Position numbers and translations under genes: made by a program
Source of the DNA: a virus
Taxonomy: Duplodnaviria; Caudoviricetes
Length of the DNA stretch: 53,563 nt
IMG/VR virus record: IMGVR_UViG_3300006128_000015
Coordinates: 1 to 53,563 of that record
Reading direction: 5' to 3' (one strand)
Notes under the pieces: generated by a model
Seen by the model: the letters and a program-made list of their open reading frames with translations, nothing else
Databases searched by the model: none
Told to the model about the DNA's origin: nothing
Shown here: in pieces, positions 878 to 52,989 of the stretch
How positions within the stretch are numbered: position 1 is the stretch's first letter
Layout of the letters: each line of letters starts with the position of its first letter

Positions 878-1186
878 ATGCCCGGAAACAAGAAAACCGC
901 AGAATGTTCCGTCTGTCAGAAACCTGTCGTACCCAATAAGACCGGGTTGTGTAGTCATCATGCACACCTAGACCCTGACATTCGTGCGGCCCGCGCCGAA
1001 CGGATGCGACAGCGTTGGTTGAATGGGCCCACGGCGCAGTTCCGTCGTGGTGGCGGGCATGTGAAGCTGGACGACATCCCTGCAGAAATGCTTGACGACT
1101 ATCGCAACCTGGCACGCAAGAGGTTTCGAGCTAACGACGCACGTAAGATACTGGGGCTGCCACCAAGGAAAGTAAGGAGCAAATGA
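878..1186 (+). CDS. small basic protein with a putative Zn-binding motif
   Basis: CSVC...CSHH; AAGGA RBS; overlaps the polymerase start. Confidence 0.7.
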   Translation: MPGNKKTAECSVCQKPVVPNKTGLCSHHAHLDPDIRAARAERMRQRWLNGPTAQFRRGGGHVKLDDIPAEMLDDYRNLARKRFRANDARKILGLPPRKVRSK

Positions 1187-3012: not shown

Positions 3013-3256
3013 AATTCACCCTGTAGTGGCATTGTTGGTCGCGCGCCGTGAGTCACACCCGCAAGAGTTTGAAATACTCTATGAAAAGGGATGGAGCGCG
3101 GCGCAAGGGCAGGGGCGCTGGGAGGGTGCGTTGGCTATGCTCGGGTGGTATTTAAACCCCGCAGAACGCGAGCTTCTACATGCGAACCGGAGAGAGCTGA
3201 TATTTGATAAGGTGTATGAGTACGTAGCCGAGCGGCTGCTGGTAGGAGCAGACTAA
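3002..3256 (+). CDS. hypothetical protein, paralog of the next ORF
   Basis: AGGAGC RBS; motif HPVVALLVARRESHPQEF. Confidence 0.8.
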   Translation: MADEIHPVVALLVARRESHPQEFEILYEKGWSAAQGQGRWEGALAMLGWYLNPAERELLHANRRELIFDKVYEYVAERLLVGAD

Positions 3257-3705: not shown

Positions 3706-4475
3706 CCAAGAAGAAACCAGTGACACCGAAGCCTAAGTCGGTTATTATCGCTACGCCTATGTACGGCGGCATGTGCGCCGGTATGTATGTTCATGGTCTG
3801 CTGACTACAGCGGACAAGATGCGCAGTAAGGGCATCAACGTGGGCTTCCTGCACATGTCCAATGAGAGCTTGATTACGCGTGCCCGCAATGAGTTGGTTC
3901 GCGTATTCTTGGAAGGGCAGAATGACTACCTCATGTTCATTGACGCCGACATCGGGTTCGATGGCGAGGCTGTAGCTGCGCTTGTTGATGCAGACGTGGA
4001 TATCGCATGCGGTATCTACCCCAAGAAGGAGATCGACTGGAAACAAATTGAAGCAGCAGCCAAGCGCGGCGAAGAAGGGTTGGAAGACTTCGGAGGCGCA
4101 TTTGTGCTGAATATGGCTGGTGACACCAGTGCCGAGACAAACGAAAAAGGGCTGATCGAAGTCCGCCACGGTGGCACGGGCTTCATGCTCATCAAGAGGA
4201 GGGTCTTCGAAGACCTCGCACCCCATGTGCACACGTACCGCATATCGTCTGTTATTGATGAAACATCAGGAGAACCAAGCAAACCACTTACACATGAATA
4301 CTTCGCTACCTCCATCGACCACAACGGAGTGCTTCTCTCAGAGGACTACCACTTCTGCGAGCTGTGGAGAAAGCATGGTGGGAAAATCTACGCCAACCCA
4401 TTCATAAAATTGTACCATGTTGGTACCTACGTCTACCAAGGAAACATCCTGCGGTCAGGCGGCAACCTCAAGTAA
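3702..4475 (+). CDS. GT-A fold (GT2-like) glycosyltransferase
   Basis: IIATPMY, ESLITRARN, FIDADI (DxD), GTGFMLIKR, SEDYHFC. Confidence 0.8.
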   Translation: MTKKKPVTPKPKSVIIATPMYGGMCAGMYVHGLLTTADKMRSKGINVGFLHMSNESLITRARNELVRVFLEGQNDYLMFIDADIGFDGEAVAALVDADVDIACGIYPKKEIDWKQIEAAAKRGEEGLEDFGGAFVLNMAGDTSAETNEKGLIEVRHGGTGFMLIKRRVFEDLAPHVHTYRISSVIDETSGEPSKPLTHEYFATSIDHNGVLLSEDYHFCELWRKHGGKIYANPFIKLYHVGTYVYQGNILRSGGNLK

Positions 4476-4487
4476 GGAGCAAATACC

Positions 4488-5254: not shown

Positions 5255-5922
5255 CAGCTTGGTCATACAGCAGCATCAAAACTTTCGACCAATGCCCCAA
5301 GAAGTACTACCACCTTAAAGTAGCTAAAGACGTAAAGGATGTGCCGCATGAGGCGGCAATCTATGGGACTGACGTTCATGCGGCGGCTGAAGAATATGTT
5401 AAGAACGGTACACCCGTGCCAAAGAAGTACTCGGTTATCGCCCCTCTGGTAGAGACTCTTGCTAAGTTTCCCGGGGACAAATACACAGAACTTAAACTAG
5501 GTTTGGAGCAAACTTGTGGTGGGTATTCTGGATGCGACTTCTTTGCTGATAGTGTTTGGTACCGTGGCATCGTTGATCTACTTATTGTTAACGGAACCAC
5601 CGCACACTTGATAGACTACAAAACCGGGAAGAACGCAAAGTACGCCGACATGAAACAGCTGGACCTTATGGCCGGTGCCGTGTTCGTGCACTTCCCGGAA
5701 GTAGAGAAGATCAAGTCTGCACTAGCATACGTAGTTAGCGACGAGTTCATCAAGAAGACACACACCAAGGAAAACCTTGAAACCTACCTATCCGTGTTTG
5801 CTCCGCAGCTGGAAGCATTGGACGCCGCCCATGAAAATGGTGTATGGAATCCAAAGAGCAGCCCGTTGTGTGGTTGGTGCCCCGTTGAGGAGTGCCCGCA
5901 CTGGAGGCCACGGAGGCGGTGA
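5251..5922 (+). CDS. PD-(D/E)XK Cas4/RecB-like exonuclease
   Basis: WSYSSIKTFDQCP, GIVD...IDYKTG, QLDLMA, C-terminal CGWCP..ECP (four Cys, Fe-S staple pattern). Confidence 0.88.
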   Translation: MTAWSYSSIKTFDQCPKKYYHLKVAKDVKDVPHEAAIYGTDVHAAAEEYVKNGTPVPKKYSVIAPLVETLAKFPGDKYTELKLGLEQTCGGYSGCDFFADSVWYRGIVDLLIVNGTTAHLIDYKTGKNAKYADMKQLDLMAGAVFVHFPEVEKIKSALAYVVSDEFIKKTHTKENLETYLSVFAPQLEALDAAHENGVWNPKSSPLCGWCPVEECPHWRPRRR

Positions 5923-6224: not shown

Positions 6225-6241
6225 CCGCACAAGGAGCAAAC

Positions 6242-7801
6242 GTGCAAATCATCGACGATAAAGTCCTGCTAGTCAGGACAAGCCGACCCGACCTTATCAC
6301 GGACAATATTAAAAAGAGCGCACTGCTCGAAGAGCATAACGGCATATTCAAAGTAGCGGTGCACTGGGGACTAAAGGAAGCCGAAGCGCTGGCTAAGCTC
6401 AGGGTAGAAGACGACGTCCCGTCGCCCCTGCTACGGGACTATAAGTGGACAGGTAAGCATAAACCGTTTGAACACCAAAAAACCACGGCATCATTTCTGT
6501 CGCTCCATCGGCGGGCGTTTTGTTTCAGTGAGGCCGGGACGGGTAAAACTGCCAGCGTAATCTGGGCCGCTGACTATCTGATGAAGCTGGGCTTGGTCAA
6601 GCGCGTGTTGGTGTTATGCCCGTTGTCGATTATGAAGGCTGCATGGCAGCGGGATTTGTTTACGTTTGCAATGCATCGTAGTTGTTGCGTGGCCCACGGT
6701 TCGGCTGAACAGCGCAAGAAAGCTATCGCTACCGGCTGCGAGTTCCTGATTATCAATTACGACGGGGTGGCTGTGGTGAAGGACGAGATTGCCGCTGGCG
6801 GCTTTGACTTGATCGTGGTGGACGAAGCAAACAGCCTGAAGAATGCCCAGACTAACCGCTGGAAGGTATTTAACCAGCTAGTTAAGGCTACCCTGCCGAG
6901 ACTATGGATGCTTACGGGTACACCCGCCGCGCAGTCTCCGGTTGATGCTTATGGCCTAGCCAAGCTAGTGAACCCCGAAGGGTGCCCACGTACATTCGCG
7001 GAATTTAGGGACTCCGTGCTTCGCAAGGTGACGCAGTTTAAATGGGTACCTAAACCAGACGCGCCCACGCGCGTACACAACTTGCTCCAACCCGCGATAA
7101 GGTTCGAGAAGAAAGATTGTTTGGACCTACCCGAAGTCATACATGTTCACCGAGATGCACCGCTAACGTCGCAGCAGATGGCGTACTACAAGAAGCTCAA
7201 GAACGATATGAGTTTCGAGGCAGACGGGGAGCGCATCAGTGCGCTGAACGCAGCGACCAATATTAACAAGCTACTGCAGATCAGCGGCGGGGCTGTTTAC
7301 ACGGATGATCGGGGCGTCGTTGAGTTTGACGTTAGCAACCGCCTGAACGCCGTTCTGGAAGTTATCGAGGAAGCTAGCCACAAGGTGCTGGTATTTGTGC
7401 CGTTCTCGCACACTATCGAGCTACTTAAGAAGCACTTGGAGAAACATAAAATACCATGTGCGGTCATTAATGGCGATGTATCTTTGAACCGGCGGAGCAG
7501 TTTAGTGGATCGGTTTCAAACCGAGAAAGACCCACACGTACTTATCATACAGCCGCAAGCGGCGAGTCATGGTCTTACGTTGACGGCGGCAGATACTGTC
7601 ATATGGTATGCGCCAGTTACGAGTGTCGAAACTTATTTGCAGGCTAACGCGCGGATTGACCGCCCCGGCCAGAAGAACGCTATGACCATCGTGCATATTA
7701 AGGGTAGCCCGGTGGAAGAGCGGCTCTACGACATGTTGCAGGACAACATTGCTAACCACGAAAAGCTCGTGGATTTATATCAGGCAGTCGTGTCAAATTA
7801 G
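6242..7801 (+). CDS. SNF2-family DNA helicase
   Basis: EAGTGKT, VVDEA, LTGTP, HGLTL, QANARIDRPGQ. Confidence 0.93.
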   Translation: MQIIDDKVLLVRTSRPDLITDNIKKSALLEEHNGIFKVAVHWGLKEAEALAKLRVEDDVPSPLLRDYKWTGKHKPFEHQKTTASFLSLHRRAFCFSEAGTGKTASVIWAADYLMKLGLVKRVLVLCPLSIMKAAWQRDLFTFAMHRSCCVAHGSAEQRKKAIATGCEFLIINYDGVAVVKDEIAAGGFDLIVVDEANSLKNAQTNRWKVFNQLVKATLPRLWMLTGTPAAQSPVDAYGLAKLVNPEGCPRTFAEFRDSVLRKVTQFKWVPKPDAPTRVHNLLQPAIRFEKKDCLDLPEVIHVHRDAPLTSQQMAYYKKLKNDMSFEADGERISALNAATNINKLLQISGGAVYTDDRGVVEFDVSNRLNAVLEVIEEASHKVLVFVPFSHTIELLKKHLEKHKIPCAVINGDVSLNRRSSLVDRFQTEKDPHVLIIQPQAASHGLTLTAADTVIWYAPVTSVETYLQANARIDRPGQKNAMTIVHIKGSPVEERLYDMLQDNIANHEKLVDLYQAVVSN

Positions 7802-7804
7802 TGG

Positions 7805-7833
7805 TTGACACTGTTAAATGTTATGTTTACTAG
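7805..7833 (+). promoter_or_regulatory. sigma70-like promoter
   Basis: TTGACA (7805-7810), 17 bp spacer, TACTAG (7828-7833), in an AT-rich intergenic gap. Confidence 0.65.
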
Positions 7834-7861
7834 TAGCCCCCCAAACCAAGAAGGAGCAAAC

Positions 7862-8266
7862 ATGGGGACCGAACCTACCGTAGATGAGCTGGTCCTCGCC
7901 TACCGCAACCTCAGGGATGCCAAGTACGCGAGTGAGAACAAACATAAGGAGGAAATGAAGGAGTATAACGCACAGCTTGATGCTATCTCGGCGCGCCTAC
8001 TAGAGATTTGTAACGCTCAGAATGTGGACGGTCTTCGGGCTTCCACAGGAACGGTCAGCCGACGCATAGTGACTAAGTATTGGACTAGCGACTGGTCGTC
8101 TATGTACGACTTTATCAAGGACCATAATGCTTTTTATCTTCTGGAGCAGCGCCTTAGCAACGGCAATATGAAGCAGTTCCTAGAAGATAACCCGGATGCC
8201 ATGCCCGTCGGCCTCAATGCCGATACTAAGTATACTATCCAAGTTCGTAAACCAACCAGCAAGTAA
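7862..8266 (+). CDS. conserved phage replication-module protein (coiled-coil N-terminus)
   Basis: Start moved to ATG 7862, which follows GAAGGAGCAAAC; lies between the helicase and the SSB. Confidence 0.8.
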   Translation: MGTEPTVDELVLAYRNLRDAKYASENKHKEEMKEYNAQLDAISARLLEICNAQNVDGLRASTGTVSRRIVTKYWTSDWSSMYDFIKDHNAFYLLEQRLSNGNMKQFLEDNPDAMPVGLNADTKYTIQVRKPTSK

Positions 8267-8276
8267 GGAGCAGACT

Positions 8277-8441: not shown

Positions 8442-9337
8442 GCACTAACCTGTCCATCTTTAAGAACCCTAACGCCGTTGTCGCGGCTTCGGGCCGCACG
8501 TCCGCACTTGCCCAACAGATTGCCTCTGGTTCGGGTGGTATCCGCCGCATCACGACCGCCACGGGCGGCACGTTCAAGCGCATCGTGAATGGCGAACAGA
8601 TTGGTAAGGCTATCCGTGGCGAGTTCAACGCCATCATTGTGCACCAGATGCCCAAGGTCAGCCGCGAGTTTTACGCGAGCGAGTACGACGCGGATGCCAA
8701 ACCCACACTGCCTGATTGCTGGTCCAACCTAGGTGATCGCCCGGAAAGCAAGGCGGCAAACCCACAGGCAGCCAACTGCACTATGTGCCCGAAGAATGTG
8801 GACGGCTCGGGTGCTAAGGGCAAGGGGCGTGCCTGTCGGTTTAACCGCCGTATCGCTCTCCTGCTTGAGGGGGATGATACGGGCGAGGTCTATCAGCTCA
8901 AAATCCCGGCCAAGTCTTTGTTCGGTAAGGGGGAAGGAAACACCCATCCGTATGAGAGCTATGGCCGTTTTCTCGTGGCGAACGGTTCGGCACCTGATCT
9001 AGTGGTTACCACTATTGCTTATAGCCTCGAAGCAGATACCATGGAGCTTAACTTCACGGCGGCGCGACCCATTACGGACGAGGAATGGGAACTTGTACAG
9101 GCGGCGCAGGCTGACCCCGACACACAGCGGTATGTGTCTCTTACTGTGGCAGAAGCCGACGGGGTATCACGTAAGCCTAGTCCGGCCAAGGTGATTGCCG
9201 CCCCTGTGGAACCCGCTGATGAGGACGACGAGGTGCACGAGCCCAAGGCCGCCAAGCGCGCCCCGAAGGCGGAAGAAGCCCCCAAGCCTAAGGGTGATCT
9301 TGCAGCCATCGTTAATGCTTGGGCTGAGGACGACTAA
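8438..9337 (+). CDS. putative single-stranded DNA-binding protein
   Basis: PDCWS...CTMCP...RAC Cys cluster; flexible linker; acidic/aromatic C-terminus (NAWAEDD); position in the replication module. Confidence 0.65.
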   Translation: MSTNLSIFKNPNAVVAASGRTSALAQQIASGSGGIRRITTATGGTFKRIVNGEQIGKAIRGEFNAIIVHQMPKVSREFYASEYDADAKPTLPDCWSNLGDRPESKAANPQAANCTMCPKNVDGSGAKGKGRACRFNRRIALLLEGDDTGEVYQLKIPAKSLFGKGEGNTHPYESYGRFLVANGSAPDLVVTTIAYSLEADTMELNFTAARPITDEEWELVQAAQADPDTQRYVSLTVAEADGVSRKPSPAKVIAAPVEPADEDDEVHEPKAAKRAPKAEEAPKPKGDLAAIVNAWAEDD

Positions 9338-9567
9338 TGAGCCACGGATACAGCCTGCGGCTCCAAGCTCTGAATGGGAAGGCGGACCAACGTAAACTTG
9401 GTGTCCGCCTAGGGAAGGCGTGTATTGAACACAGCGTTCCTGTTTCGGTGGTCGCGCAGCGCATGGGTGTGTCTCGTACTACGGTGTATAATTGGTTCTG
9501 CGGGGTTACGACCCCGCAGGACTCCCTCACTGTAGTTATTGAGTCGTATATATCCAACCTGCAGTGA
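9337..9567 (+). CDS. Cro/XRE-like HTH protein
   Basis: VSVVAQRMGVSRTTVYNWFCG helix-turn-helix pattern. Confidence 0.8.
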   Translation: MSHGYSLRLQALNGKADQRKLGVRLGKACIEHSVPVSVVAQRMGVSRTTVYNWFCGVTTPQDSLTVVIESYISNLQ

Positions 9568-9629: not shown

Positions 9630-12449
9630 ATGTCTGATTTCGACCTTCTATCTGCCGTTCAGCCCACAGGTGGTTGGTATGCTGTTGTGGGCATAAAGGA
9701 CGGCGCAGGCGTTAAACAAACTTTCGTAGAGACACGGGAGGAAGTCGAAGAGGTAGCCGGGCGGCTCCTAGAAAACCAATATAATGTGTTTTTCGGTGTA
9801 GCTAAATACGCAACTAATAGGGGGCGCAAGCAGGACAACGTCCAAGCACTTCAGGCATTGTGGGTAGACCTCGACTGTGGGGCTGGCAAACCCTACGCAG
9901 ACCAGAACGAAGCGATGGCCGCACTCAAGGAGTTCTGCGGAACCATCGGGTTGCCTAAGCCTATCATCGTTAACTCGGGGCGCGGGCTACACGTATACTG
10001 GTCGCTAGAGGAAGCGGTATCTCGGGCGGAGTGGGAGCCCGTCGCGGCGCGGCTTAAGGAGCTGTGTGATATACACAGTCTCCACGCTGACCCCAGCTGC
10101 TTCGAAGCGGCGCGCGTCCTACGCTTGCCGGGCACCTACAACTTTAAAGGTGACGAACCGCTTGGAGTCTCGGTAGTCGTCGAGAGCAAGAAGCGCACGA
10201 AACTAGAGGACCTGAAGTCACTTCTAGGCGTCAAGGAAAAGCCGATAGCGCACGACTTTGCGCGGCGCGAACTCAGTCCTCTGGCGCAACAGCTGCAAGC
10301 CAGCATCCAGTCCAGTTTTAGCAAGATTATGCGTCGGGGTGAGAAAGGATGCGCCCAACTTAATGCCTGCTATGCCGAGCGTGCGGAGCTGTCTGAGCCG
10401 CGTTGGTTCGACGCCCTGTCTGTTGCTAAGTTCTGTAAGGATAGGGATGTAGCTATCCACAAACTATCCGCAGACTATCCGGGTTACGACCCGGCGGAGG
10501 TAGACCGCAAGGTTCAGCATATCTTGGGGCCCCACACCTGCGCAGCATTCGACAAGAACAACCCGGGTCTATGTGATGAATGCCCTCACAAGGGTAAGTT
10601 CCGGTCCCCTATCGCCCTTGGCCGCGAGGTCGAAGCAGCGAGCGAGGAAGATAATAACGTATCTGTTTCTGGCGACAACGGGGAGCTTCTTGGCGAATAC
10701 CGTATACCTGAGTATCCCTTCCCGTACTTCCGGGGTAAGGGGGGCGGCATCTGGAAGAAGGGTACCGGGGAAGAAGCTGAGGACTTTCTTGTCTACGAGC
10801 ATGATCTGTATCTCGTTAAGCGCATGGAAGACCCCAACCTTGGCGCAGTAGTATTGATGCGCCTCCACCTCCCTTGCGACGGTGTTAAGGAAGTAGTTGT
10901 ACCCAGCGCTAAAATAAACGACGGCACCGAGCTACGGGGTATACTTGGGTTTCTGGACGTTGTAGCCACCAAGAAGCAGTTTGATCTGCTTGTAGACTTC
11001 ATAATTCGGTCTTTGAAGACATTGCAACATAAAAGGAGCGCAGAGCAAATGAGAAATCAGTTTGGGTGGGCCGACGGCGATAGCCGTTTTATTATCGGTG
11101 ACCGCGAGATTAGTGCAGATGGTACGCGAGCAAGTCCTCCGTCGTCAGTAACTTCTGCTATTGCACCTCATATGCAGACCGTGGGTACCTTCGAGAAGTG
11201 GAAGGAGGTGTTTGATATGTACGGCCTCCCGGGGCTTGAGGCTAACGCCTTCGCCGCCGCTACGGCTTTCGGTGCGCCGCTACTTAAGTTCTCCGGGCAG
11301 AAGGGCGCGATCATCAACCTGATCCACCCCAACTCGGGCACAGGTAAGACAACCATCCTGCACATGTGCAACTCGGTGTGGGGTAACCCAGACGCACTCT
11401 GCGCCAAGAAGGACGACACCTTTAACTCGAAGGTCCACAAGCTCGGTGTGCTGCGTAACTTGCCCGTCTGCTTTGATGAGATGTCTAACACAGAAGGCAA
11501 GCAGTTGTCTGAGCTGGCGTACCTTATCACACAGGGCATCGGTAAGGACCGAATGAAGGCGTCCTCTAACGAGCTGCGCGTCAACAACACCACGTGGCAG
11601 ACTATCGCACTGTGCTCGTCTAACCACTCGTTCTATGAAAAGCTGGAGGACCTGAAGGACTCACCGCAGGGTGAGATGATGCGTATCATTGAGCTGTACC
11701 TAGACTACTCCGACGCTATCGAGACCGGTGTAGCCAAGCACATGTTCGATCATCAGTTGAAGGAAAACTACGGCCACGCTGGCGACATCTATGCCCGGTT
11801 CTTGGTTGAGAACCACGAAGAGGTTAAAACTACCTATCTCAATATGCAGGGGATCATCGACCGGCGGCTTAATCTCACCCAGCGTGAGCGGTTCTGGTCT
11901 GCGACTGCAGCAGCTAACTTGACTGGCATCCACATCGCTATCCGCCTCGGGCTGTGCAAGTGGGACCTCGAACGTATTTACAAGTGGGTGTGCAAGCAAA
12001 TCCTCGAACTCAGGACTACCACTCTCCCGCCATTGGACGGGGCCCAGCAAATCCTTGCTGAGTTCATTTTGCGCCACATCGACAACACGCTAGTGATTAA
12101 CGACGAAGTAGACCTTCGCTCGGGTATGCGGTCTTTCGCGCTGTTGGAGCCGCGCCGCGACCTTAAGATCAGGTTTGAGCCGGACACTCAGAAGGTGTTT
12201 ATCCTAGCAAGCGCATTCAGGCGCGAGTGCCAGCTTCGTAACGCCAGCTATCGTGAGACGACGAAGGAGCTGAAAAACAAGGGCTTGCTATTCCCCAAGA
12301 GCGAAAACAAGCGGCTATCCAAGGGGACCAAGATCGGCACGCCTACGGTAGCTACGCTGGTGTTTGACGCTTCCCACAGCGAGTTTATCGACATCACTGA
12401 GCTTGTTGCCAACGAGAGAGAACCCGTCGATGAGAGTGTCGGGGATTAA
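9630..12449 (+). CDS. primase-helicase (RepB-like AEP primase, Cys cluster, DUF927-like P-loop helicase)
   Basis: WVDLDCG, VNSGRGLHVYW, RVLRLPGT; PHTC...CDECP; SGTGKTT and CFDE Walker motifs. Confidence 0.88.
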   Translation: MSDFDLLSAVQPTGGWYAVVGIKDGAGVKQTFVETREEVEEVAGRLLENQYNVFFGVAKYATNRGRKQDNVQALQALWVDLDCGAGKPYADQNEAMAALKEFCGTIGLPKPIIVNSGRGLHVYWSLEEAVSRAEWEPVAARLKELCDIHSLHADPSCFEAARVLRLPGTYNFKGDEPLGVSVVVESKKRTKLEDLKSLLGVKEKPIAHDFARRELSPLAQQLQASIQSSFSKIMRRGEKGCAQLNACYAERAELSEPRWFDALSVAKFCKDRDVAIHKLSADYPGYDPAEVDRKVQHILGPHTCAAFDKNNPGLCDECPHKGKFRSPIALGREVEAASEEDNNVSVSGDNGELLGEYRIPEYPFPYFRGKGGGIWKKGTGEEAEDFLVYEHDLYLVKRMEDPNLGAVVLMRLHLPCDGVKEVVVPSAKINDGTELRGILGFLDVVATKKQFDLLVDFIIRSLKTLQHKRSAEQMRNQFGWADGDSRFIIGDREISADGTRASPPSSVTSAIAPHMQTVGTFEKWKEVFDMYGLPGLEANAFAAATAFGAPLLKFSGQKGAIINLIHPNSGTGKTTILHMCNSVWGNPDALCAKKDDTFNSKVHKLGVLRNLPVCFDEMSNTEGKQLSELAYLITQGIGKDRMKASSNELRVNNTTWQTIALCSSNHSFYEKLEDLKDSPQGEMMRIIELYLDYSDAIETGVAKHMFDHQLKENYGHAGDIYARFLVENHEEVKTTYLNMQGIIDRRLNLTQRERFWSATAAANLTGIHIAIRLGLCKWDLERIYKWVCKQILELRTTTLPPLDGAQQILAEFILRHIDNTLVINDEVDLRSGMRSFALLEPRRDLKIRFEPDTQKVFILASAFRRECQLRNASYRETTKELKNKGLLFPKSENKRLSKGTKIGTPTVATLVFDASHSEFIDITELVANEREPVDESVGD

Positions 12450-12624
12450 TTACGAAGTAAACTGGCGTAAGTTCAAGCGGGGGGCGTCTATGTTCTTCCC
12501 CTGCTTGGACGCGCAGACCGCCAAGCGCGAAGTGCTGGCCGTCACCAGACGCCTACGAATAAAGACAGTCAGTAAAGCAGTTATTGTTGACGGTATCAGG
12601 GGTTTACGAATCTGGAGAGTGTGA
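12430..12624 (+). CDS. small basic hypothetical protein
   Basis: ATG 12430 is in frame with the track ORF; NWRKFKRGASMFFPCL...GLRIWRV. Confidence 0.7.
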   Translation: MRVSGINYEVNWRKFKRGASMFFPCLDAQTAKREVLAVTRRLRIKTVSKAVIVDGIRGLRIWRV

Positions 12625-12630
12625 TATTAC

Positions 12631-12695
12631 GGGGTTGGAAGTTTGCTCCTTCCCTCCCAACTTGGCCCCCGGTGTTAGCGCACCGGGGGTTTTTT
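12631..12695 (+). ncRNA. putative small antisense RNA (anti-RBS hairpin plus terminator)
   Basis: GTTTGCTCCTTC (12641-12652) is the reverse complement of the phage RBS GAAGGAGCAAAC. It sits in a stem-loop followed by an intrinsic terminator. Expression is inferred. Confidence 0.5.
12665..12695 (+). terminator. intrinsic terminator at the convergence of the two modules
   Basis: GCCCCCGGTGT-TAGC-GCACCGGGGGT followed by a T run. Confidence 0.9.
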
Positions 12696-15600
12696 ATTGT
12701 TCATCATACTCAGCGCGTACGTCGTAGTATCGCTTGTTGAACCGGCTGAAAATACGTTCTTCCCGGTCGCTAAACATTTTGGCTCGTTCTTTGCGAACCT
12801 GCGGGTCTTTCACTGCTTTAAGCATTTGCGCGCGGGCCCGGCTGAGTTCTGTCAGCTGTGTGCTAGCCATTTGGTAGGCCCCCAACACACGGGGGTCAGT
12901 CTCGAATGGGTACTTCTCTTTAGATTCCCGGAAGGCCAACGGTTCCTCTTTGCGTTGGTTGAGTAGTGCCTCGAAGCTAGGTACCCCCTCGGCGGTGTTT
13001 TTGTAGTAAGCAGCCATGGGGGCATATTCAGCACCTTGGCCAATGAACCCCTTAACCAAAGGCAGGCGTTCGGCTAGGGTCTTAGTGTCTTTATCTTTGC
13101 CGCTAGCAAAGTCGTCTATCTGCTTAGCGAACTGAAATGCACCGCCGCCATAACTCTCGATGAGGTGCTTGTAGCTCTCAGGGTGCAAATCAACCAGACC
13201 CGGCACACTGCCAGAACCGAAGGTTAGGTCGTTTACCTTACCCGCCAGCTCTTTATAGAACTCCGGTGTCCCTTCACGCCCCGATGCCGACGCAGCCTTA
13301 GTCTCCTTGTACTGATCCTTATAGATAGGCGAGTCAAAGAAATTACGGTTAGCCGCCAGCTGCGCGAAAGGTGCCACTAACGTAGGGGTGAGAGATGCGG
13401 CAATCTGGGTCCCCGTTTTACCGCGCGGCAGAGGGACCGGCGACAACAGTTCGCCCCATCCCCTAGCAACATCGGTAAGCGCAGCGCCCATATGGATAGC
13501 ACCATGTATGTGATTGGTCGCGCCATAGCCATACTCAGCCATTTTCTCACCCAGATAAAGGTAGGGTGTCGTGATGAAGGCCGCTGGCACCTTGATATAC
13601 TGGTCCGACTTATGGCCGTACCGGAGTATATAACTGTATAGTTTATCGTGGTCGGGAACATCCATCCAGTTAGGACGACCATCTTTATCATCGTCGTCAC
13701 TACCCATAGCAATATTCCACGCAGCAAGCATAGCACCCAGTGCTATCTGCGAGGCCATCAACTTCCTACCAATAGGGCTCAGTGGCATCTTTGCTGCGAT
13801 GCGTAGGGTATTAACCTTGGCGGTGGCAAACCAGTACAAGGCACCAAGCATCGGCCCCCGCTCGCCCATACGGCTAGTGTTGATATAGGAGTTGGCAGCC
13901 ATGTAGGCCGCTTCTTTCTCACTCATGCCGGTATCAAGTGCGGCCTTATATGCCGCCAGACGCACGCGAAGCTCGCCCATACGCACGAAGTTCTCTACGG
14001 CACCGAGGACAATCTTGGCCCGGTCTTTGCCAATAGCGAGCATATCACCTTGGTCACGCTTGGACATACCCTCCAGAAACTTCTGGTAGTGCTCGGCGGT
14101 ATCCTCAGCGGTGCGGAATGCTGTGTGGCTTGATGCACCGCCACTATCCAGCATTTGGTCAATAAGAAGCATAGTATGCGCTTGCGTGTCGGACTTCGGC
14201 TCGCGCTTCCAGATATGGTTCCACAGCGCGCCAGTAAGGTCTTTACCCGGGCCCCACATGGGGTTTAGGTTCTTGCCTACCTCTTTAGCATACTCCGTAT
14301 TACCAAAGGCAGGGCTGCTCTTGTCACCCACGGCCAGCTTGGCGTTCTTTAGTGCTTCGTCGGTGTCACGAATAATCATACGATCCAAGAACAGCGGACT
14401 GCGCTGGACGTTCAAAGACCGGAATACCGCGCCCCACTTGTTGACGACCCCCATAAACTTACCCAAGTCTTGGGGGCTTAGGTTCTCGAACATGCGCTTA
14501 AGCTGCGCACCCGCCTCGGTAGGCTGGAAGTCTAGGTAATGTGTGTTGCCATTGCGCTTAACGACGAGGTAGTCATCTGCTTCCTTGCGCATGTTAGACC
14601 GGATAGGGATACCGTCAGGATACTCTACACGCTCGCTGGGAATAACCCGCACCTTGGGGTTAGCATCGGTGTATGCTCTGACCACGTCCTTATATAGATC
14701 GGGTTCGGCTAACACATTCTCCAGCAGCTTCTGCCCAACCTCGTTCTTGGCGACACGTTGGGAGAGGGCCTTCGCATCTGCGATAAGGTTGATTGTGGGG
14801 CTGAACGGCATAGAGCCGCGACCCATGGCCTTACCTATAACAGCGGGATTGATACCGAGGTTCTGCCGGAATGTGGCCTCGTCGTGGGGGTTCTGGTCCC
14901 CGGCGGTATACATATCGCCATCTAGGGCGTGCCCCTTCAGCGCCGCATAGTTAGGTTGAGCTTTGCGCAGCTCGTCGGCCTGTTGTTTGGTGAGGAGCCC
15001 AGACTTAACGTACTCGTTCTGCGTGTAGTCGCGTAGAGCGTCATGCAGTTTGGCCGCCTTCTCAAGCGTGGGAGTCATGCCGTATTTATCGTATACCGCA
15101 AGGATACCCTTTGCCTGCGCGTCGGTGAGGCCAGAGCCACTTTCAAGGAACCGCGAGTTGCGCTCACCTACGATCTTATTACGGTCCACGGCACCGCGCG
15201 CCCACAGGTACATGTCTAGATCGGAGAGATTGACTTTCAGCGCCGCGAGCCCTTTAAACAGCGGGTCTACGTAGTCGCGGTCAATCTTAGCGGTCATACC
15301 GTTCTTCTTGTTTTTGACCAGTTCCGCTACAGCGCGCACCGACATATCGAACGGTAGCCGCGTAACACCGTACGCCTTAGCCAGCCAGCGATCCACGCTA
15401 TTAGATGCTTCCAAGTCGAAGACGTTCTTGGTCTTCTCGTCGGTAATGAGTTTCTGCAGCTTGGACTCGTTCTCCGCGATAGCGCCAAGCGTAGCATCCA
15501 CAGAACTGGTGGGCCCCTTCTTGCGTAACTCATCGCGCAGAGCTTGCACTTCTTCATCGTGGGCCCCCGGCCCGGTACCGCGTTCGACAGATGGGCCCGG

Positions 15601-18600
15601 ACGGGCTTCGGTTGCTTCTCCGATCTCGCTTGCGGCGCGGTCTACAACCGACATAATCTTTTCGACATAGTCTATCGCGGGCGCGGCTTCCGCTTCGGCC
15701 TTGGGCCCCTTACCGAAGATGCTCTTAACCGCGTCAACAAACCGCTGTAGCAGCGTGCGCGGCTGAGGCTCAGCCTTTGTAGGTTTCGGTGTAAGCTCGT
15801 CAATAACCTTGCGGAACTCAGGGTTAGTGTAAACCTCCGAGGCAAACTCGTGCGCATCGGTAAACCCGTAGTGGGCCTTCATCTCCTCAGGCGCAAGGAA
15901 CTCGAACAGCTTCCACAGGTGCTGCAGCTCTTTACCGATTGGTGTACTGTTCTCGATATGCCAGCTAGTTAACCCATGCACGATTTCATGCAGTGGGATA
16001 TGATCCAGTGTCATCTGCTGATTGAGGTACACCGTCTTAGTGCGCGGATCGTAGACGCCTTCTAGATTAGGGACGTCTTCTAGGCGTTCGCCCTCCCTGC
16101 GCGCCACAAGCCTGATAGTATCCGAGTCAACTACCAACACGCGCATATCAGGCGCAACAGCCAGAATACGTTGGGCAATCTCCGCAAGCGGGCCACCCCG
16201 GTTGATAATATCCTGCAGTACCGCGTGCGCACTCTGTGTCTCTTGGGCCACCCGAAGCGAGTGCTGCGCCGACTCCGTACGCTCCCCGGTAACCAAGTCC
16301 GTTGCAAGCCTCGGGGCCATAGGAGTTTCGACCCGCAAGGCTGCTTTCTGCATGTCGCGCTCGCGCGCGGTTATCTCACCAGCCTTATATGCAGCATCAA
16401 TCTGCCGCAGTTTCTCTTGGCGCGTGGCAACACGGGCTTGTGCTTCCCTACCCGCTGCGTTGGCAATATCTGACCGAGCGGCATCCAGTGCAGCATTACC
16501 TTGTTCGATAGCCGCTTTGAGCTGCGCCTTTTCTTTGGGGGCCGTGGCGTTCTGGAGTTGCTCGGCCTTGTCGTTGACGTCGGCCTGAAGACTAAGCACC
16601 TTGGTCCAACGGGCTTGCTGTGAGGGAGGCAGTGCATTGAGGTCTTCTTTCGACCCCGGCACGCGCATCATGTTGAGCACTTCACCCACATCTTGGTCGG
16701 ATACGAGGTTGTTATTCCGTAGGGTATTGAGCTGGCTGGTAACTTTTTGCTCATCCTGCATACCCTGAGTAAGCTCAGCAGCACCCTCAACCGGGCGGCC
16801 CATTTGGGTACCCATCATACCCTTGCGGGTTTCGTTCACGCCGCGCGCTACACCGGGGGTAACCTTGGTAATGGGAACAGGGGGGACTTCTTCGGCGGGT
16901 GTAGGGGAAGGAATGACTTCTTCGGGGGGTGCAGCACCAGCACCAGCACCGCCCCCAGCCGGAGTTAGAATAGGGGTTTCCGTAGTGGGCTTAGTAACCG
17001 CAGTCTCTTTTACGGTTTTGCTAGGCGGCGCTTCAGGTGCACCTTCTGTAAGGGCGGCGGCCTTGGCTTCGAGATACTTATTGAACGTACCAGCCCACTT
17101 AGGGTCGCGCGCAAATGCCTCGCTCTCGGGTGTCATCCCGAACTTCTTTAGCGTAGCCTCGATGCTGGCGATTGTTTCGTGTGGGTTTGCAGCTTCAGGC
17201 ACTTTCGCGGGTGCCGCCACGGGCACCCCAGTCGCCTCCGCCCCAGCGGGCTTTTGTGCGGGTATACCCCCCGCCGCAGGTTCTCCCGTGACGCCTAAAG
17301 GATGCCACTCTTCCAGCGGGCCTTCGCGCGGGGGGTATGTACCCGCACCGATACGTTGTTCTAGTTCTCCGCTGGGCCCAAACACGTCATTCAACCCGGC
17401 TGCGCGCCGTTCATGGGTAAGCAGTCCCATGAGCTCATCCTGCGTAAGCGGATCAAGGCCGCGCGCGGCGAGCTCTTTTTGCGTGGTGTGCAGTCGCTCC
17501 AACGGGTCCCCAGTAGTCTGGTCCAATATACGTTGGGCGATAGGTAGGCGGTCTTGCAGCCGCTGGGCCTGTATCAGGGCATCGACCGAAGTTTTTGCGT
17601 TTTCTGAAGCCACTAGCTGGCGCAGCTGGTTAATGTCTACGTGCTGGCCTACAGCCGCATCCCGCTGTTCTTGTGTGATATCCCCACGTTGGAATGCTTG
17701 ATTATACAGCTCAACCATACCTCGGTTGTACTGCACCATTTTACCAAACCGGAGTTTCTCTTCCGGTGTCATGTTCGGATCAAGCCCGTTGGCACTGAGG
17801 GCGCTCGAAAGCATGCCCTCTTGGTTCCCGGTACCTGTAAAGGTTTCCGGGTGTGCGGCTACGGCCTGAAATACATTTTGGCGCGCATTAAACGCATCTG
17901 TAGCCGCAGCCTGTTGAGCGTTTTGTTGGAGGAGTTCGGGAGACACTCCGGGAGCGGGCTCGCCCACTGTCACGCCGGGTTGCGCTTTTGCCTTGGCTTG
18001 TTCGGCCATGTAGTCCGTTACAATGGACTTGCTCTCAAGCCACACCCGCAGGCGTGGGTCTGATACGTTATCTACACCACCTTGCGCAAATTCATTTTGG
18101 GCCTGACGCAGACGCAACTTACTCGCACGGCCAGCCATATCCGATACATAGTCAGCCGCGCCCGATACGTTGCCTTGAGACAGCGAGCTGGTGAGCTTGT
18201 CCGTTGCTTGGTTGATTAAGTTAGTATGCTTTTCGGTGTCGTCGCCCGCAGCCGCCTCTAGGCGCCCCCTAATCATATCCTGACTGAAAGCATCAGAGAG
18301 GTGGCGCTCACCCACACCCGCATTCATCTGCCCCGTCTCAAAAACCGCGCCGAGGTCCGAGAGAGCACTAGCGTACTCTGCAGGAGACGATGCACCCGCC
18401 GTGAATCCGGTTTTGTTGGCCGTAGCGGCCTTGTCGGCGGGTGCTCCCTGCTCCGTCTCCGCGCGGGTATCCCGGGCATTACGTAACCATTCCGCGCCGC
18501 CGTGGAGAAGGGCGCCACCACCAGAAGTAACGCCGCCCAGAATAGCACCGGATAGGGCCGACTCTGGTACACCCTGCCAAACAGAGCGTGTAGGGTCGTA

Positions 18601-41212: not shown

Positions 41213-41239
41213 AGGTAATCTCCCATTCGGTATAAGTCT

Positions 41240-51122: not shown

Positions 51123-51237
51123 CGATAAAACCTAACAGAATCAAAGGCTTGCGATTTATCTTGCTTTATGTGCTACGTTTACCCCATAAGGATCATGCAG
51201 CGATGATGCTGCACATTAACGTAATGGAGCAAACGAC

Positions 51238-52689: not shown

Positions 52690-52761
52690 AAAAGAAAAAA
52701 TCAGAGTACAGGGGGGCCGACCATTTCGGCCTAACGAGTGGTTAGATTTTAGGAGCGAACG

Positions 52762-52974: not shown

Positions 52975-52989
52975 CAAAGGAGCAGACCA

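What the first reader, a model, noticed from the sequence alone, without database searches (positions are those of the whole stretch)
12631..12695. Candidate phage-encoded anti-RBS small RNA targeting about 10 of its own early/replication genes
Seen in the sequence: an extended RBS precedes many + strand genes. Copies are AAGGAGCAAAT (1174, pol; 4474), AGGAGCAACT (2991), AGGAGCAGACT (3244), AAGGAGCAAAC (6231, helicase), GAAGGAGCAAAC (7850), AAGGAGCAGACT (8265), GGAGCAAAC (51226), AGGAGCGAAC (52751) and AAGGAGCAGAC (52977). The 3' end of the + module contains GTTTGCTCCTTC (12641-12652), a 12/12 reverse complement of the 7850 site. It lies in a hairpin (GGAAG/CTTCC, or GTTGG/CCAAC) that exposes UUUGCUC in the loop, directly ahead of an intrinsic terminator. 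Read on the - strand, no start codon follows it, so it is not itself an RBS. Established knowledge: the 16S anti-SD explains AGGAG but not the CAAAC extension, and UUUG fits the YUNR U-turn of antisense recognition loops. Almost all target variants in the extension are A>G or C>U, which preserve G-U pairing with GUUUG; that is expected for RNA-RNA pairing rather than protein binding. The late-gene RBSs I inspected (AGGAGAT, AGGAGAA, AGGAGTA, AGGAGCTT, AGGAGCGT) lack the extension. Inference: a trans-acting sRNA, either 3'-UTR derived or from a TTTACG/TATTAC promoter at 12603-12630, shuts off early/middle translation as a regulon-wide developmental switch.
Basis: partly seen in the sequence, partly recalled or inferred. 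Interest (0 to 1): 0.88.

Follow-up and report, generated by a model that had tools for sequence, protein, structure and literature searches.

The report
Phage small RNA that masks ribosome sites
An uncultivated phage, like many of its relatives, carries a short hairpin RNA gene at the end of its replication operon whose loop matches the ribosome-binding site of that operon's first gene, and the two sequences change together across relatives, which is strong evidence that the RNA switches the gene down.

Summary
GTTTGCTCCTTC (12641-12652, +) is the exact reverse complement of the ribosome site at 7850-7861. It sits in a 5-bp/7-nt-loop hairpin directly ahead of a +-strand terminator.

Comparative data make it a real element. 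The same module follows a conserved 64-aa gene in relatives: promoter-like hexamers, anti-RBS hairpin, CU-rich spacer, terminator. Four of the 5 stem pairs show compensatory changes.

The loop and 3' arm stay complementary to the translation initiation region (TIR) of one orthologous gene, a Mu Gam/Gp157-like gene (window 7862-8266). This holds through at least 3 independent coordinated substitutions plus three-way stem/TIR changes. Overall, 58 of 69 unique phages have at least 9 bp, against 19% of shuffled-flank controls.

The regulon-wide claim is only partly supported. In this phage 11 of 16 early GGAG sites pair over at least 9 bp, against 0 of 14 late sites. Its clade is enriched for such sites, but shared ancestry could explain that.

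No expression data exist. It is a new, widespread phage sRNA family and a new variant of a known kind; the P1/P7 c4 RNA and CU-rich anti-SD sRNAs are closest.

The parts
12603..12630 (+). Promoter-like element of the small RNA. The -35-like TTTACG (12603-12608) lies inside the last codons (G-L-R) of the 64-aa gene. A 16-nt spacer follows, then the -10-like TATTAC (12625-12630), preceded by TGA (stop codon = TGn).
   Evidence: Sequence. All 48 unique elements have a TAtaNt hexamer 0-7 nt after the stop codon: 24 are TATACT, and 23 have TTTACG as the -35. In relative L006 the tool calls TTTACG-16-TATACT with TG. In the window itself the tool's scan does NOT call a promoter, because TATTAC lacks T at position 6.
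12637..12653 (+). Anti-RBS hairpin: 5' arm GGAAG (12637-12641), loop UUUGCUC (12642-12648), 3' arm CUUCC (12649-12653). The predicted 5' end of the RNA is at about 12637.
   Evidence: Fold. In 24 distinct sequences 98.3% of 120 cells are paired, 4 of 5 pairs show compensatory changes, and 0 of 500 shuffles do as well. The hairpin starts 6 nt (14), 7 nt (6) or 9 nt (3) after the -10-like hexamer in the 23 one-hairpin elements.
12641..12652 (+). Seed GUUUGCUCCUUC, complementary 12 of 12 to 7850-7861.
   Evidence: The duplex energy of the contiguous helix is -19.6 kcal/mol.
12654..12663 (+). CU-rich single-stranded spacer (CUCCCAACUU). Together with the 3' arm it reads CCUUCCCUCCC, a second anti-SD-like motif.
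   Evidence: This stretch is what aligns to the aSD motif of the sub-threshold Rfam mmgR model. Spacers are CU-rich in relatives.
12664..12695 (+). Intrinsic terminator: GC-rich 12-pair hairpin at 12664-12691 with T-run at 12690-12695. The stop codon of the convergent 2228-aa late gene (12694-12696, - strand) lies in the T-run.
   Evidence: The T-run is on + in the 48 unique elements with a terminator-like T-run (of 61 family members), because the detection regex requires one on the + strand. In 35 distinct terminator stems the non-Watson-Crick pairs are 8 G.U and 0 A.C on +.
12430..12624 (+). Conserved 64-aa gene of unknown function that always precedes the RNA. Its C-terminal GLR(I/V)WR codons carry the -35-like hexamer.
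   Evidence: No Pfam or PHROG match and no match in cultured phages.
7850..7861 (+). Primary target: the TIR GAAGGAGCAAAC immediately before the ATG at 7862.
   Evidence: covariation with the loop.
7862..8266 (+). Target gene: 134-aa Mu Gam / Siphovirus Gp157-like protein, a putative DNA-end-binding host-nuclease inhibitor.
   Evidence: PF07352 gives sub-threshold hits in 17 of 22 orthologues (best 2.7e-4) and DUF7307 in 15 of 22 (best 5.7e-8). The AF2 model has pLDDT 90. BFVD matches include 'Siphovirus Gp157' at 6.5e-5 and 'Host-nuclease inhibitor' at 3.2e-4. No PDB match.
7805..7817 (+). TTGACA -35 hexamer inside a near-palindrome (TTGACACTGTTAA), about 50 nt before the target start codon. 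It is a likely promoter/operator that makes the target the first gene of the operon.
   Evidence: TTGAC is at this position in 88 of 96 unique orthologous upstream regions. The -10 score is 4 of 6 or better in 72 of the 88, and a TTGACnnnGT[CT]AA palindrome is present in 37. The window's own -10 is poor and the tool scan does not call it.
6231..6241 (+). Candidate secondary target: helicase TIR AAGGAGCAAAC (11 bp).
   Evidence: The same match is seen at the helicase TIR in L048, L111, L147, L154, L158, L163, L168, L172, L187 and L216.
1174..1184 (+). Candidate secondary target: DNA polymerase TIR AAGGAGCAAAU (11 bp with 1 G.U).
3244..3254 (+). Candidate secondary target: TIR AGGAGCAGACU (11 bp with G.U).
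4474..4484 (+). Candidate secondary target: TIR AAGGAGCAAAU (11 bp with 1 G.U).
8265..8276 (+). Candidate secondary target: TIR AAGGAGCAGACU of the 54-aa gene (12 bp with G.U).
   Evidence: The orthologous gene in L009, L187 and L216 also matches.
51226..51234 (+). Candidate secondary target: TIR GGAGCAAAC (9 bp).
52751..52760 (+). Candidate secondary target: TIR AGGAGCGAAC (10 bp with G.U).
52977..52987 (+). Candidate secondary target: TIR AAGGAGCAGAC (11 bp with G.U).

Best explanation
A small RNA of about 59 nt (roughly 12637-12695, + strand) is encoded at the very end of the phage's replication operon. It is either made from its own weak sigma70-type promoter, whose -35 lies in the last codons of the 64-aa gene and whose -10 overlaps its stop codon, or released as the operon's 3' end.

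Its 5' hairpin displays UUUGCUC in the loop. The loop plus the 3' arm (GUUUGCUCCUUC) base-pair with the Shine-Dalgarno region and spacer (-12 to -1) of the Gam/Gp157-like gene at 7862. That gene is the promoter-proximal gene of the same operon.

Pairing probably starts as a loop-to-TIR kissing contact and spreads into the 3' arm by displacing the 5' arm. It hides the SD from the 30S subunit and so represses translation of that gene. Knock-on decay or polarity on the downstream replication genes is likely. The result is an RNA feedback on the operon that encodes it.

In this phage and its UUUG-loop clade the same seed also fits many other early TIRs (polymerase, helicase and others), so it probably damps several early genes at once.

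What is shown:
- the structure and its conservation;
- the strand of the terminator;
- the complementarity and its maintenance by coordinated substitutions.

What is inferred:
- that the RNA is made;
- the direction of the effect (repression);
- polarity;
- multi-target action and timing.
For: 1. Conserved module. The element follows the 64-aa gene in 24 of 26 primase-ascertained relatives with downstream DNA. It is present in 35 of 117 loci found by a hairpin pattern scan and in 26 of 46 unique helicase-ascertained metagenome loci.

2. Hairpin. In 24 distinct sequences, 98.3% of cells are paired and 4 of 5 pairs show double changes: GGAAG/CUUCC, GAGAG/CUCUC, GACAG/CUGUC, GUAAG/CUUAC, GGAUG/CAUUC, AACAAG/CUUGUU. 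None of 500 shuffles does as well.

3. Strand. The T-run is on + only, and the terminator stems hold 8 G.U against 0 A.C.

4. Target covariation. Each loop class matches its own phage's TIR for the same orthologous gene:
- UUUG with GGAGCAAAC
- UUAG with GGAGCUAA(C)
- CUAG with GGAGCUAGC
- AAUCG with GGAGCGAUU
- UUCG with GGAGCGAAC
- AUUG with GGAGCAAUC
- UUG with GGAGCAAU
- ACCUCU with AGAGGUAA
In 34 unique pairs the variable position +5 is Watson-Crick in 33. At positions 4-8 there are 11 G.U against 2 A.C. On a primase tree the sRNA base changes 3 times and the TIR base 4 times at +5, three of them together.

5. Three-way changes of 5' arm, 3' arm and TIR flank occur in L013 (GUAAG/CUUAC/UAAGGAG), L154 (GAGAG/CUCUC/AGAGGAG) and L158 (GGAAAG/CUUUCC/GAAAGGAG, 13 bp).

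6. Overall complementarity. Of 69 unique phages, 58 have at least 9 bp and 39 have at least 11 bp. With TIR flanks shuffled and GGAG kept, the figures are 19% and 3.7%. In a permutation of own against foreign TIRs, p is about 5e-5, without control for relatedness.

7. Target position. The target TIR lies in a short leader behind a conserved TTGACA-16-TATAcT promoter, present in 88 of 96 upstream regions.

8. Window-specific. Eleven of 16 early GGAG TIRs pair over at least 9 bp, against 0 of 14 late ones.
Against: - No expression data: no RNA run was available, so neither a discrete transcript nor its ends are shown.
- The window's own promoters are sub-consensus and fail the tool's scan, both for the sRNA (TATTAC) and for the target (poor -10).
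- The -35-like hexamer overlaps conserved codons, so part of its conservation comes from coding.
- Whole-element folding energy is on average lower for the reverse complement, in 35 of 48 elements.
- Exceptions exist. Eleven of 69 phages with an element have less than 9 bp to the target TIR, for example L052, L106 and L160. Twenty of 46 helicase-ascertained relatives show no terminator or element at this place.
- For secondary targets, GGAGCAAA-type TIRs also occur in phages whose loop does not match them. The clade enrichment is confounded by shared descent.
Confidence: 0.75

Rival explanations
1. There is no separate small RNA. The anti-RBS hairpin acts only in cis as the 3' untranslated end of the long operon mRNA, folding back over about 4.8 kb onto the leader of the first cistron.
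For: No terminator lies between the primase/64-aa genes and the element, so the operon transcript must carry it. The window's own sRNA promoter is weak and is not called by the scan. Target and element are always in one operon, 4.63-4.85 kb apart in the 26 pattern-ascertained loci.
Against: A -10-like hexamer (TATACT in 24 of 48) is conserved in non-coding sequence just after the stop codon and sits 6-9 nt before the hairpin in 23 of 23 one-hairpin elements. The tool calls it as a promoter in L006. The constant distance is explained by gene order. An AU-rich stretch there could equally be a processing site, which would also release a small RNA.
Confidence: 0.12
2. The two sites are a DNA-level inverted repeat recognised by a DNA-binding protein (for example the operon's 76-aa HTH protein) or kept alike by gene conversion. 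RNA pairing would then be incidental.
For: As double-stranded DNA the two sites are the same 11-13-bp sequence in opposite orientation. An HTH protein is encoded in the operon.
Against: One site coincides exactly with an SD and spacer. The other is the loop and arm of a hairpin with compensatory stem changes, next to a terminator. Where the sites differ, the mismatches are mostly G.U in the + RNA sense: 11 G.U against 2 A.C. A DNA repeat does not predict that. The three-way covariation with the 5' arm has no meaning for a DNA site. A different conserved palindrome (TTGACnnnGTCAA) is the obvious operator candidate.
Confidence: 0.04
3. The functional strand is the - strand. Read-through of the late operon past the U-less hairpin yields an RNA that carries a copy of the early TIR (GGAAGGAGCAAAC) and acts as a decoy for ribosomes or for a TIR-binding factor.
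For: On the - strand the terminator hairpin has no U-tract, so read-through is likely. Whole-element MFE is slightly better on - in 35 of 48 elements.
Against: The T-run, the G.U pairs of the terminator (8 against 0) and the promoter-like hexamers are all oriented for +. The G.U against A.C asymmetry of the loop-TIR pairs fits + RNA. A decoy would need identity to the TIR, and identity is what DNA complementarity gives anyway, so this reading predicts nothing extra.
Confidence: 0.04
4. Chance or generic feature: a pyrimidine-rich hairpin ahead of a terminator that merely resembles an anti-SD. The shared RBS extension would then be just the clade's preferred strong initiation site with an A-rich spacer.
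For: A-rich spacers after AGGAG are common. GGAGCAAA sites occur in relatives whose loop does not match.
Against: An exact 12-mer match is expected about 0.003 times per strand in 53.6 kb (my arithmetic), and the reversed control occurs 0 times. The loop and the orthologous TIR change together in many lineages.
Confidence: 0.03

Closest known systems
c4 antisense RNA of phages P1 and P7 (immI; Rfam C4 family)
   Same: It is a phage-encoded small RNA, encoded on the same strand and in the same operon as its target. Loop sequences pair with the ribosome-binding region of a phage mRNA and block translation. Specificity between related phages is set by matched changes in RNA and target (review PMC12197685, passages seen). 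The polarity on downstream genes is my recollection.
   Different: No sequence or structure match was found: nothing at Rfam gathering score and no C4 row at E <= 10. c4 lies upstream of its target, is processed, and serves immunity in temperate phages. Here the RNA is at the operon's 3' end with a terminator and a promoter-like element. It has one pairing loop and targets a replication-module gene, with possible extra targets.
CU-rich anti-Shine-Dalgarno (aSD) sRNAs of alpha-proteobacteria (MmgR/alpha-r8, AbcR1/2, NfeR1) and similar C-rich sRNAs
   Same: These are short RNAs with CU-rich aSD motifs in loops or unpaired regions plus a Rho-independent terminator. They pair with the TIRs of several mRNAs (review PMC7143759, passages seen). 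The best, sub-threshold, Rfam hit is mmgR RF00519, aligned over its whole length to 12630-12704.
   Different: The score of 24.8 bits is below the gathering score of 41, so it is not a member. Those are chromosomal host regulators of metabolism. This one is phage-borne, and its seed extends beyond the SD into a gene-specific spacer that co-varies with one phage gene.
3'UTR-derived sRNAs with a promoter inside the upstream coding region (DapZ, MicL type; recalled, not looked up here)
   Same: The promoter-like hexamers lie in or at the end of the preceding ORF. The RNA shares the mRNA's terminator, and the seed lies upstream of the terminator hairpin.
   Different: Those act on unrelated genes elsewhere in the genome. 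Here the target is the first cistron of the very operon that carries the RNA, which makes a feedback loop.
T4 RegA translational repressor
   Same: It gives a functional picture of one phage factor competing with ribosomes at the TIRs of many (about 30) early mRNAs (review PMC3014915, passages seen). That is what the regulon-wide reading would amount to.
   Different: RegA is a protein that recognises AU-rich sites around the AUG. Here the factor would be an RNA acting by base pairing, and multi-target action is not shown.
Cis-encoded phage antisense RNAs (P22 sar, lambda OOP)
   Same: They are phage RNAs that pair with a phage mRNA, around an RBS in the case of sar (review PMC12197685, mentions sar only as a regulatory antisense RNA of phage P22; that sar pairs around the ant RBS, and lambda OOP as an example, are my recollection).
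   Different: Those are transcribed from the opposite strand of their target and are fully complementary. This RNA is encoded 4.8 kb away on the same strand and has an 11-13-nt seed.

Membership tests
C4 antisense RNA (P1/P7, Rfam) | Match to the family covariance model | tested here: not met
   No Rfam family reaches gathering score in the window. C4 is not among the 13 rows at E <= 10 for 12540-12740.
C4 antisense RNA (P1/P7, Rfam) | Loop(s) complementary to the RBS region of a gene in the same operon, with matched RNA/target changes between related phages | tested here: met
   There is one loop, not two.
C4 antisense RNA (P1/P7, Rfam) | Encoded upstream of the target and released by processing; part of an immunity region of a temperate phage | tested here: not met
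   The element lies 4.8 kb downstream of its target, at the operon end. Processing and lifestyle were not tested.
MmgR / alpha-r8 (Rfam RF00519) | Covariance-model score at or above the gathering score (41 bits) | tested here: not met
   24.8 bits, E = 0.0014-0.0023.
MmgR / alpha-r8 (Rfam RF00519) | Unpaired CU-rich aSD motif plus terminator | tested here: met
   CCUUCCCUCCC aligns to the model's UUUcCUCCCU. Terminator.
Trans-acting base-pairing sRNA (general kind) | Seed complementary to the target TIR and maintained by covariation | tested here: met
Trans-acting base-pairing sRNA (general kind) | Rho-independent terminator on the RNA strand | tested here: met
Trans-acting base-pairing sRNA (general kind) | Own promoter or defined processing site giving a discrete small transcript | tested here: inconclusive
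   A conserved -10-like hexamer sits 6-9 nt before the hairpin and is called as a promoter in L006, but not in the window.
Trans-acting base-pairing sRNA (general kind) | Detected transcript; effect on target translation; chaperone (Hfq/ProQ) dependence | not testable with these tools
   No RNA run was available. The host is unknown.
Mu Gam / Siphovirus Gp157 (target protein) | Pfam match at the curated threshold | tested here: not met
   The window protein's best hit is DUF7307 at E = 0.078, 13.3 bits against a cut-off of 27. PF07352 is matched below threshold in 17 of 22 orthologues, best 2.7e-4.
Mu Gam / Siphovirus Gp157 (target protein) | Fold: long N-terminal helix plus C-terminal alpha/beta domain, like annotated Gam/Gp157 proteins | tested here: inconclusive
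   The AF2 model has pLDDT 90. Foldseek against BFVD gives 17 hits at E <= 1e-3, including 'Siphovirus Gp157' and 'Host-nuclease inhibitor', with TM 0.4-0.7. Nothing in the PDB.

The most novel reading that the evidence does not exclude
One phage small RNA acts as an RNA counterpart of T4 RegA. From the end of the replication operon it base-pairs with a shared, extended ribosome-binding site (AAGGAGCARAY) on about ten early genes (polymerase, helicase, the Gam-like gene and others) and shuts down early translation as its level rises. It also closes a feedback loop on its own operon. The extended RBS would then be a regulon 'address label' that co-evolves with the loop: GGAGCAAAC in UUUG-loop phages, GGAGCUAAC in L228, GGAGCAACU in the UUG-loop phages.
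Probability: 0.35. Interest if true: 0.82.

Novelty: new variant of a known kind. Interest (0 to 1): 0.68.

Why it matters
Few small RNAs of lytic-type phages have a known target, and most phage sRNAs described so far come from prophages and act on host genes (passages in PMC4933390; review PMC12197685).

Here sequence comparison alone delivers a complete, testable pair: an sRNA family not in Rfam, its seed, its conserved target site and natural compensatory variants. It is found in about 100 uncultivated freshwater and marine phage contigs. The helicase scan alone reported 536 related stretches.

It points to RNA-level feedback on a replication operon, and on a putative host-nuclease inhibitor. 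In one clade it may amount to an RNA-based early-gene regulon.

The natural loop/TIR variants form ready-made orthogonal repressor-operator pairs that could be tested, and used, in ordinary laboratory hosts.

Tried and rejected
- Whole-sRNA duplex scans were not usable. One search timed out after 12 loci. One search gave 432 + strand 'sites' at -13 kcal/mol or lower because interior loops are allowed, so I switched to contiguous, register-anchored pairing.
- The strand test by whole-element MFE went against the + strand, in 35 of 48 elements. I kept it as evidence against and used helix-specific G.U against A.C counts instead.
- MAFFT could not place the 1-nt loop-length difference. The stem counts therefore use 7-nt-loop sequences only: 25 of the roughly 35 unbiased sequences. 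The AAUCG-loop clade, the UUG-loop phages, L158 and L229 were left out.
- I built no covariance model.
- RNA evidence: no RNA holder was listed for 11900-13300.
- Cultured relatives:
  - No DNA match in the phage collection.
  - The closest primase is Pseudomonas phage Rollin at 28% aa, and its convergent genes overlap with no room for the element.
  - The 64-aa gene has no match.
  - Nothing was found in genome contigs, so the host stays unknown.
- PDB sequence and fold searches for the target protein found nothing.
- My recollection that PAK_P3 sRNA2 targets many RBSs was wrong. The paper reports only single 11-nt matches.
- I considered a tiny - strand ORF behind the SD-like sequence and rejected it.
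- Supplementary files of papers were not consulted.
- The literature statement 'not described' rests on searches only.
Full report
WHAT THE WINDOW IS
The window is a linear IMG/VR virus record of 53,563 bases, estimated 84% complete.
- The + strand carries the replication genes from about 51.2 kb, wrapping round to 12.6 kb. They include a family-A DNA polymerase at 1183-3012, a helicase at 6242-7801 and a primase-helicase at 9630-12449.
- The - strand, 12694-50823, carries the structural genes (terminase, a 2228-aa protein with an LPD38 domain, and others).
- No cultured phage is close. There is no DNA match. The polymerase is 38% identical to Rhizobium phage RHph_TM3_14A, and the primase 28% identical to Pseudomonas phage Rollin.

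THE OBSERVATION
- The 12-mer at 12641-12652 is the exact reverse complement of 7850-7861 and occurs nowhere else.
- It forms the loop (UUUGCUC) and 3' arm (CUUCC) of a 5-bp hairpin at 12637-12653. A CU-rich spacer follows, then a strong +-strand terminator at 12664-12691 with its T-run.
- The element sits between the stop of a 64-aa gene (12624) and the stop of the convergent 2228-aa late gene (12694-12696).
- GGAGCRRAY occurs 13 times, against 3.5 +/- 1.8 expected, with 0 of 100 shuffles reaching 13.
- Nine of the ten + strand copies precede start codons.
- Of 16 early GGAG-type initiation sites, 11 can pair with the hairpin over 9 or more contiguous bp (Watson-Crick plus G.U). None of the 14 late sites exceeds 7 bp.

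RELATIVES
I fetched relatives in three independent ways.
1. By primase protein from viral contigs: 34 loci at 43-61% aa identity (best segment).
2. By the degenerate hairpin pattern: 117 new loci. Of these, 35 have the 64-aa gene upstream and so belong to the family. The remaining 82 lack a detectable 64-aa gene; a few of them (L051, L096, L141) still show the terminator and are probably family members cut at the contig edge, and the rest look unrelated.
3. By helicase protein from metagenome contigs: 80 loci at 63-79%.
Sets 1 and 3 are blind to the RNA and to the RBS. Set 2 fixes the stem but not the loop's variable bases or the RBS.

A CONSERVED RNA GENE
Downstream of the conserved 64-aa gene, nearly all relatives that have DNA there show the same order:
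- a -35-like hexamer (TTTACG in 23 of 48 unique elements) inside the last codons GLR(I/V)WR;
- a spacer of 16-18 nt;
- a -10-like hexamer just after the stop codon (TATACT in 24 of 48);
- then, after 6-9 nt, the hairpin (14 at 6 nt, 6 at 7 nt, 3 at 9 nt, out of 23 one-hairpin elements);
- a CU-rich spacer;
- a GC-rich hairpin with a T-run.

Promoter evidence is mixed.
- The tool's promoter scan calls TTTACG-16-TATACT with an upstream TG in L006, ending 6 nt before the hairpin.
- It does not call the window's TTTACG-16-TATTAC.
- The window's promoter is therefore sub-consensus, and part of the -35 conservation comes from coding.

Other architectural points.
- Some clades carry an extra 5' hairpin with a CUCC loop.
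- The anti-RBS stem is kept by compensatory change. In 24 distinct sequences from the blind sets, 98.3% of 120 cells pair. Four of 5 pairs show changes on both sides (9 cells). None of 500 shuffles reaches any measure, and slid controls fall to 28-74% paired (smaller set).
- The terminator works on the + strand. The T-run is on +, and 35 distinct stems contain 8 G.U and 0 A.C.
- Against this, whole-element folding energy is a little lower for the reverse complement in 35 of 48 elements. I attribute that to the purine-rich complement of the CU-rich unpaired parts, but it remains a contrary result.

THE TARGET
In each phage the loop plus 3' arm is complementary to the initiation site of one and the same orthologue, the 130-148-aa gene that is 7862-8266 in the window (orthology). 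The match follows the loop:

| Loop / anti-SD | TIR of the orthologous gene | Phages |
|---|---|---|
| UUUG | GGAGCAAAC | window, L009, L011 and many others |
| UUAG | GGAGCUAA(C) | L012 group, L025, L087, L228 |
| CUAG | UAAGGAGCUAGC | L013 |
| AAUCG | GGAGCGAUU | L005, L091 |
| GGUCG | GGAGCGAUU, through two G.U | L004 |
| UUCG | GGAGCGAAC | L066 |
| AUUG | GGAGCAAUCU | L217 |
| UUG | GGAGCAAU | L164, L169 |
| ACCUCU | AGAGGUAA, a changed SD core | L195, L197 |

Quantitatively:
- In a register anchored on GGAG/CUCC, 34 unique pairs are Watson-Crick at the variable position +5 in 33 cases.
- Positions 4-8 hold 11 G.U against 2 A.C and 12 other mismatches, many of the last from two outliers, L052 and L106.
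- On a primase tree of 46 rows, the sRNA base at +5 changes 3 times and the TIR base 4 times. Three changes are shared (A to G, A/G to U, U to G in L066), and the fourth is the outlier L052.
- Further coordinated changes occur at +7 and +8 (L013, and the AAUCG clade).
- Three-way changes link the 5' arm, the 3' arm and the TIR's 5' flank. L013 has GUAAG/CUUAC with UAAGGAG. L154 has GAGAG/CUCUC with AGAGGAG. L158 has GGAAAG/CUUUCC with GAAAGGAG, giving 13 bp.
- Over all 69 unique phages with both element and gene, 58 have 9 bp or more, 51 have 10 or more and 39 have 11 or more. In the blind sets alone, 36 of 46 have 9 or more and 21 of 46 have 11 or more. With the TIR flanks shuffled and GGAG kept, the figures are 19%, 8.9% and 3.7%.
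- A permutation of own against foreign TIRs gives p of about 5e-5, but it ignores relatedness.

Exceptions:
- Eleven of 69 phages with an element have less than 9 bp. In some of these the start codon may be mis-assigned (L106, L166, L229).
- Twenty of 46 helicase-ascertained relatives, mostly the more distant ones, have no terminator or element at this place. Nineteen of those 20 also lack a GGAGC-type TIR. So I found no case of 'extension kept, hairpin lost' on a scale that would refute the idea.

WHAT THE TARGET IS AND WHERE IT SITS
The protein has no curated family match of its own.
- Of 22 orthologues, 17 hit Pfam Phage_Mu_Gam below threshold, 15 hit DUF7307 (best 5.7e-8) and 15 hit the Mu_Gam/Sipho_Gp157 domain.
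- An AlphaFold model (pLDDT 90) has a 47-residue N-terminal helix and an alpha/beta domain.
- It matches viral models named 'Siphovirus Gp157' and 'Host-nuclease inhibitor' but nothing in the PDB.
- I therefore call it Gam/Gp157-like. The nuclease-inhibitor function is inferred.

About 50 nt before its start codon, 88 of 96 unique orthologous upstream regions carry TTGAC(A).
- A -10 hexamer of 4 of 6 or better follows at 16-18 nt in 72 of the 88. Several relatives have 11-12 of 12 matches.
- This places the -10 mostly 22-34 nt before the AUG.
- The target site therefore lies in a short leader, and the Gam-like gene is the first gene of a unit that runs through the primase and the 64-aa gene to the RNA and its terminator.
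- In the window the -35 is perfect (7805-7810) but the -10 is poor, and the scan does not call it.

MECHANISM
The most economical reading is this. An RNA carrying the hairpin, whether a roughly 59-nt primary or processed sRNA or at least the operon's 3' end, pairs with the leader of the operon's first cistron over 11-13 bp that include the SD (-19.6 kcal/mol for the window's helix). It excludes the 30S subunit and represses translation.
- Because the 3' arm is shared between the stem and the target duplex, pairing must start at the loop and open the stem. The three-way covariation fits that.
- Feedback on the whole operon through decay or polarity is an inference, by analogy with c4 of P1/P7.
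- The direction of the effect (repression) follows from the SD being inside the duplex. It is not shown.

THE REGULON QUESTION
For it:
- The window has 10 further early TIRs with 9-12 bp to the seed and no late one.
- Across all sets, 49 of 253 unique non-target TIRs pair over 10 or more bp with their own phage's seed, against 14.7 expected with seeds of other loop classes. Most of this signal is the UUUG class, 36 of 115 against 7.1.
- The helicase TIR matches in at least ten UUUG-loop phages.
- L155 has 5 extra sites.
- L228 (UUAG loop) has two extra GGAGCUAAC sites of 12 and 14 bp.
- The UUG-loop phages L164 and L169 have extra GGAGCAACU sites of 11 bp.

Against it:
- Outside the UUUG class the excess is small: 13 of 138 against about 7.6.
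- GGAGCAAA-type sites occur where the loop does not match them, for example the 292-309-aa gene of L012, L013 and L021.
- The first Fisher test (11 of 43 against 4 of 84, p = 0.001) draws 5 of its 11 from the window itself.
- Related phages share sites by descent.

Physically the RNA cannot tell an 11-bp helicase site from the 12-bp primary site, so some effect is expected. I put the regulon reading at about 0.35-0.4.

COMPARISON WITH KNOWN SYSTEMS
- Rfam has no family for the element.
- The best sub-threshold hit is mmgR (24.8 against 41 bits), aligned through the CU-rich aSD motif and the terminator. That shows likeness to CU-rich anti-SD sRNAs, not membership.
- The closest functional precedent is the c4 RNA of P1/P7. 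T4 RegA is the protein analogue of the regulon reading.
- The PAK_P3 small RNAs are not a precedent.
- Literature searches found no description of this family. For the four papers read I saw passages only. For all others I saw only search listings.

VERDICT
This is a real, conserved, structured RNA element with a co-evolving target site. It is a new phage sRNA family and a new variant of a known regulatory kind.

Noticed in passing
window 7805-7817; loci: The -35 of the conserved promoter before the Gam-like gene lies in a near-palindrome, TTGACnnnGT(C/T)AA, present in 37 of 88 regions that have TTGAC. It looks like an operator. A 76-aa HTH protein (window 9337-9567, sub-threshold HTH_23 and similar) is encoded in the same operon and could be its binder.
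   Followed up: partly
window 12430-12624: A 64-aa ORF with no family match always precedes the RNA gene. Conserved motifs are NW.xF..G.SFFIPC and GLR(I/V)WR at the C-terminus. Its function is unknown, and a role with the RNA is possible.
   Followed up: partly
window 12664-12697, - strand: Read on the - strand, the terminator hairpin has no U-tract, and the late 2228-aa gene stops inside the A-run. Late transcription may run on and produce RNA fully antisense to the small RNA and to the end of the early operon.
   Followed up: no
L012 1831-1855; L014 697-726: In the two-hairpin clade, the RNA stretch from the inter-hairpin CU-rich region through the anti-RBS hairpin is about 22 nt imperfectly complementary to a second initiation region with two SD-like motifs (genes of 130-150 aa). 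Energies are -29 and -33 kcal/mol. This is a possible second conserved target there.
   Followed up: no
L013 9769-9797: The first hairpin of the L013 RNA has a long imperfect complementarity (-36.7 kcal/mol) to a site inside or near the 75-aa gene upstream of the primase.
   Followed up: no
window 5505-5513 and 5796-5804: Inside one + strand gene (5251-5922) there is a GGAGCAAAC not followed by a gene start. About 290 nt downstream lies its reverse complement GTTTGCTCC, an internal pair with the same sequence as the RBS/loop pair.
   Followed up: no
L009 1397-1472: A tRNA-Leu(UAA) gene sits directly before the Gam-like gene's RBS in this relative, in place of the promoter seen elsewhere.
   Followed up: partly
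window 40370-41248, - strand: A GIY-YIG-type homing endonuclease ORF (PHROG 314, 2e-35) lies within the late gene block.
   Followed up: no
window 12694-19380, - strand: A very large (2228-aa) late protein with a C-terminal LPD38 'large polyvalent protein' domain (PF18857, 4e-24). It ends 1 nt from the RNA's terminator T-run.
   Followed up: no
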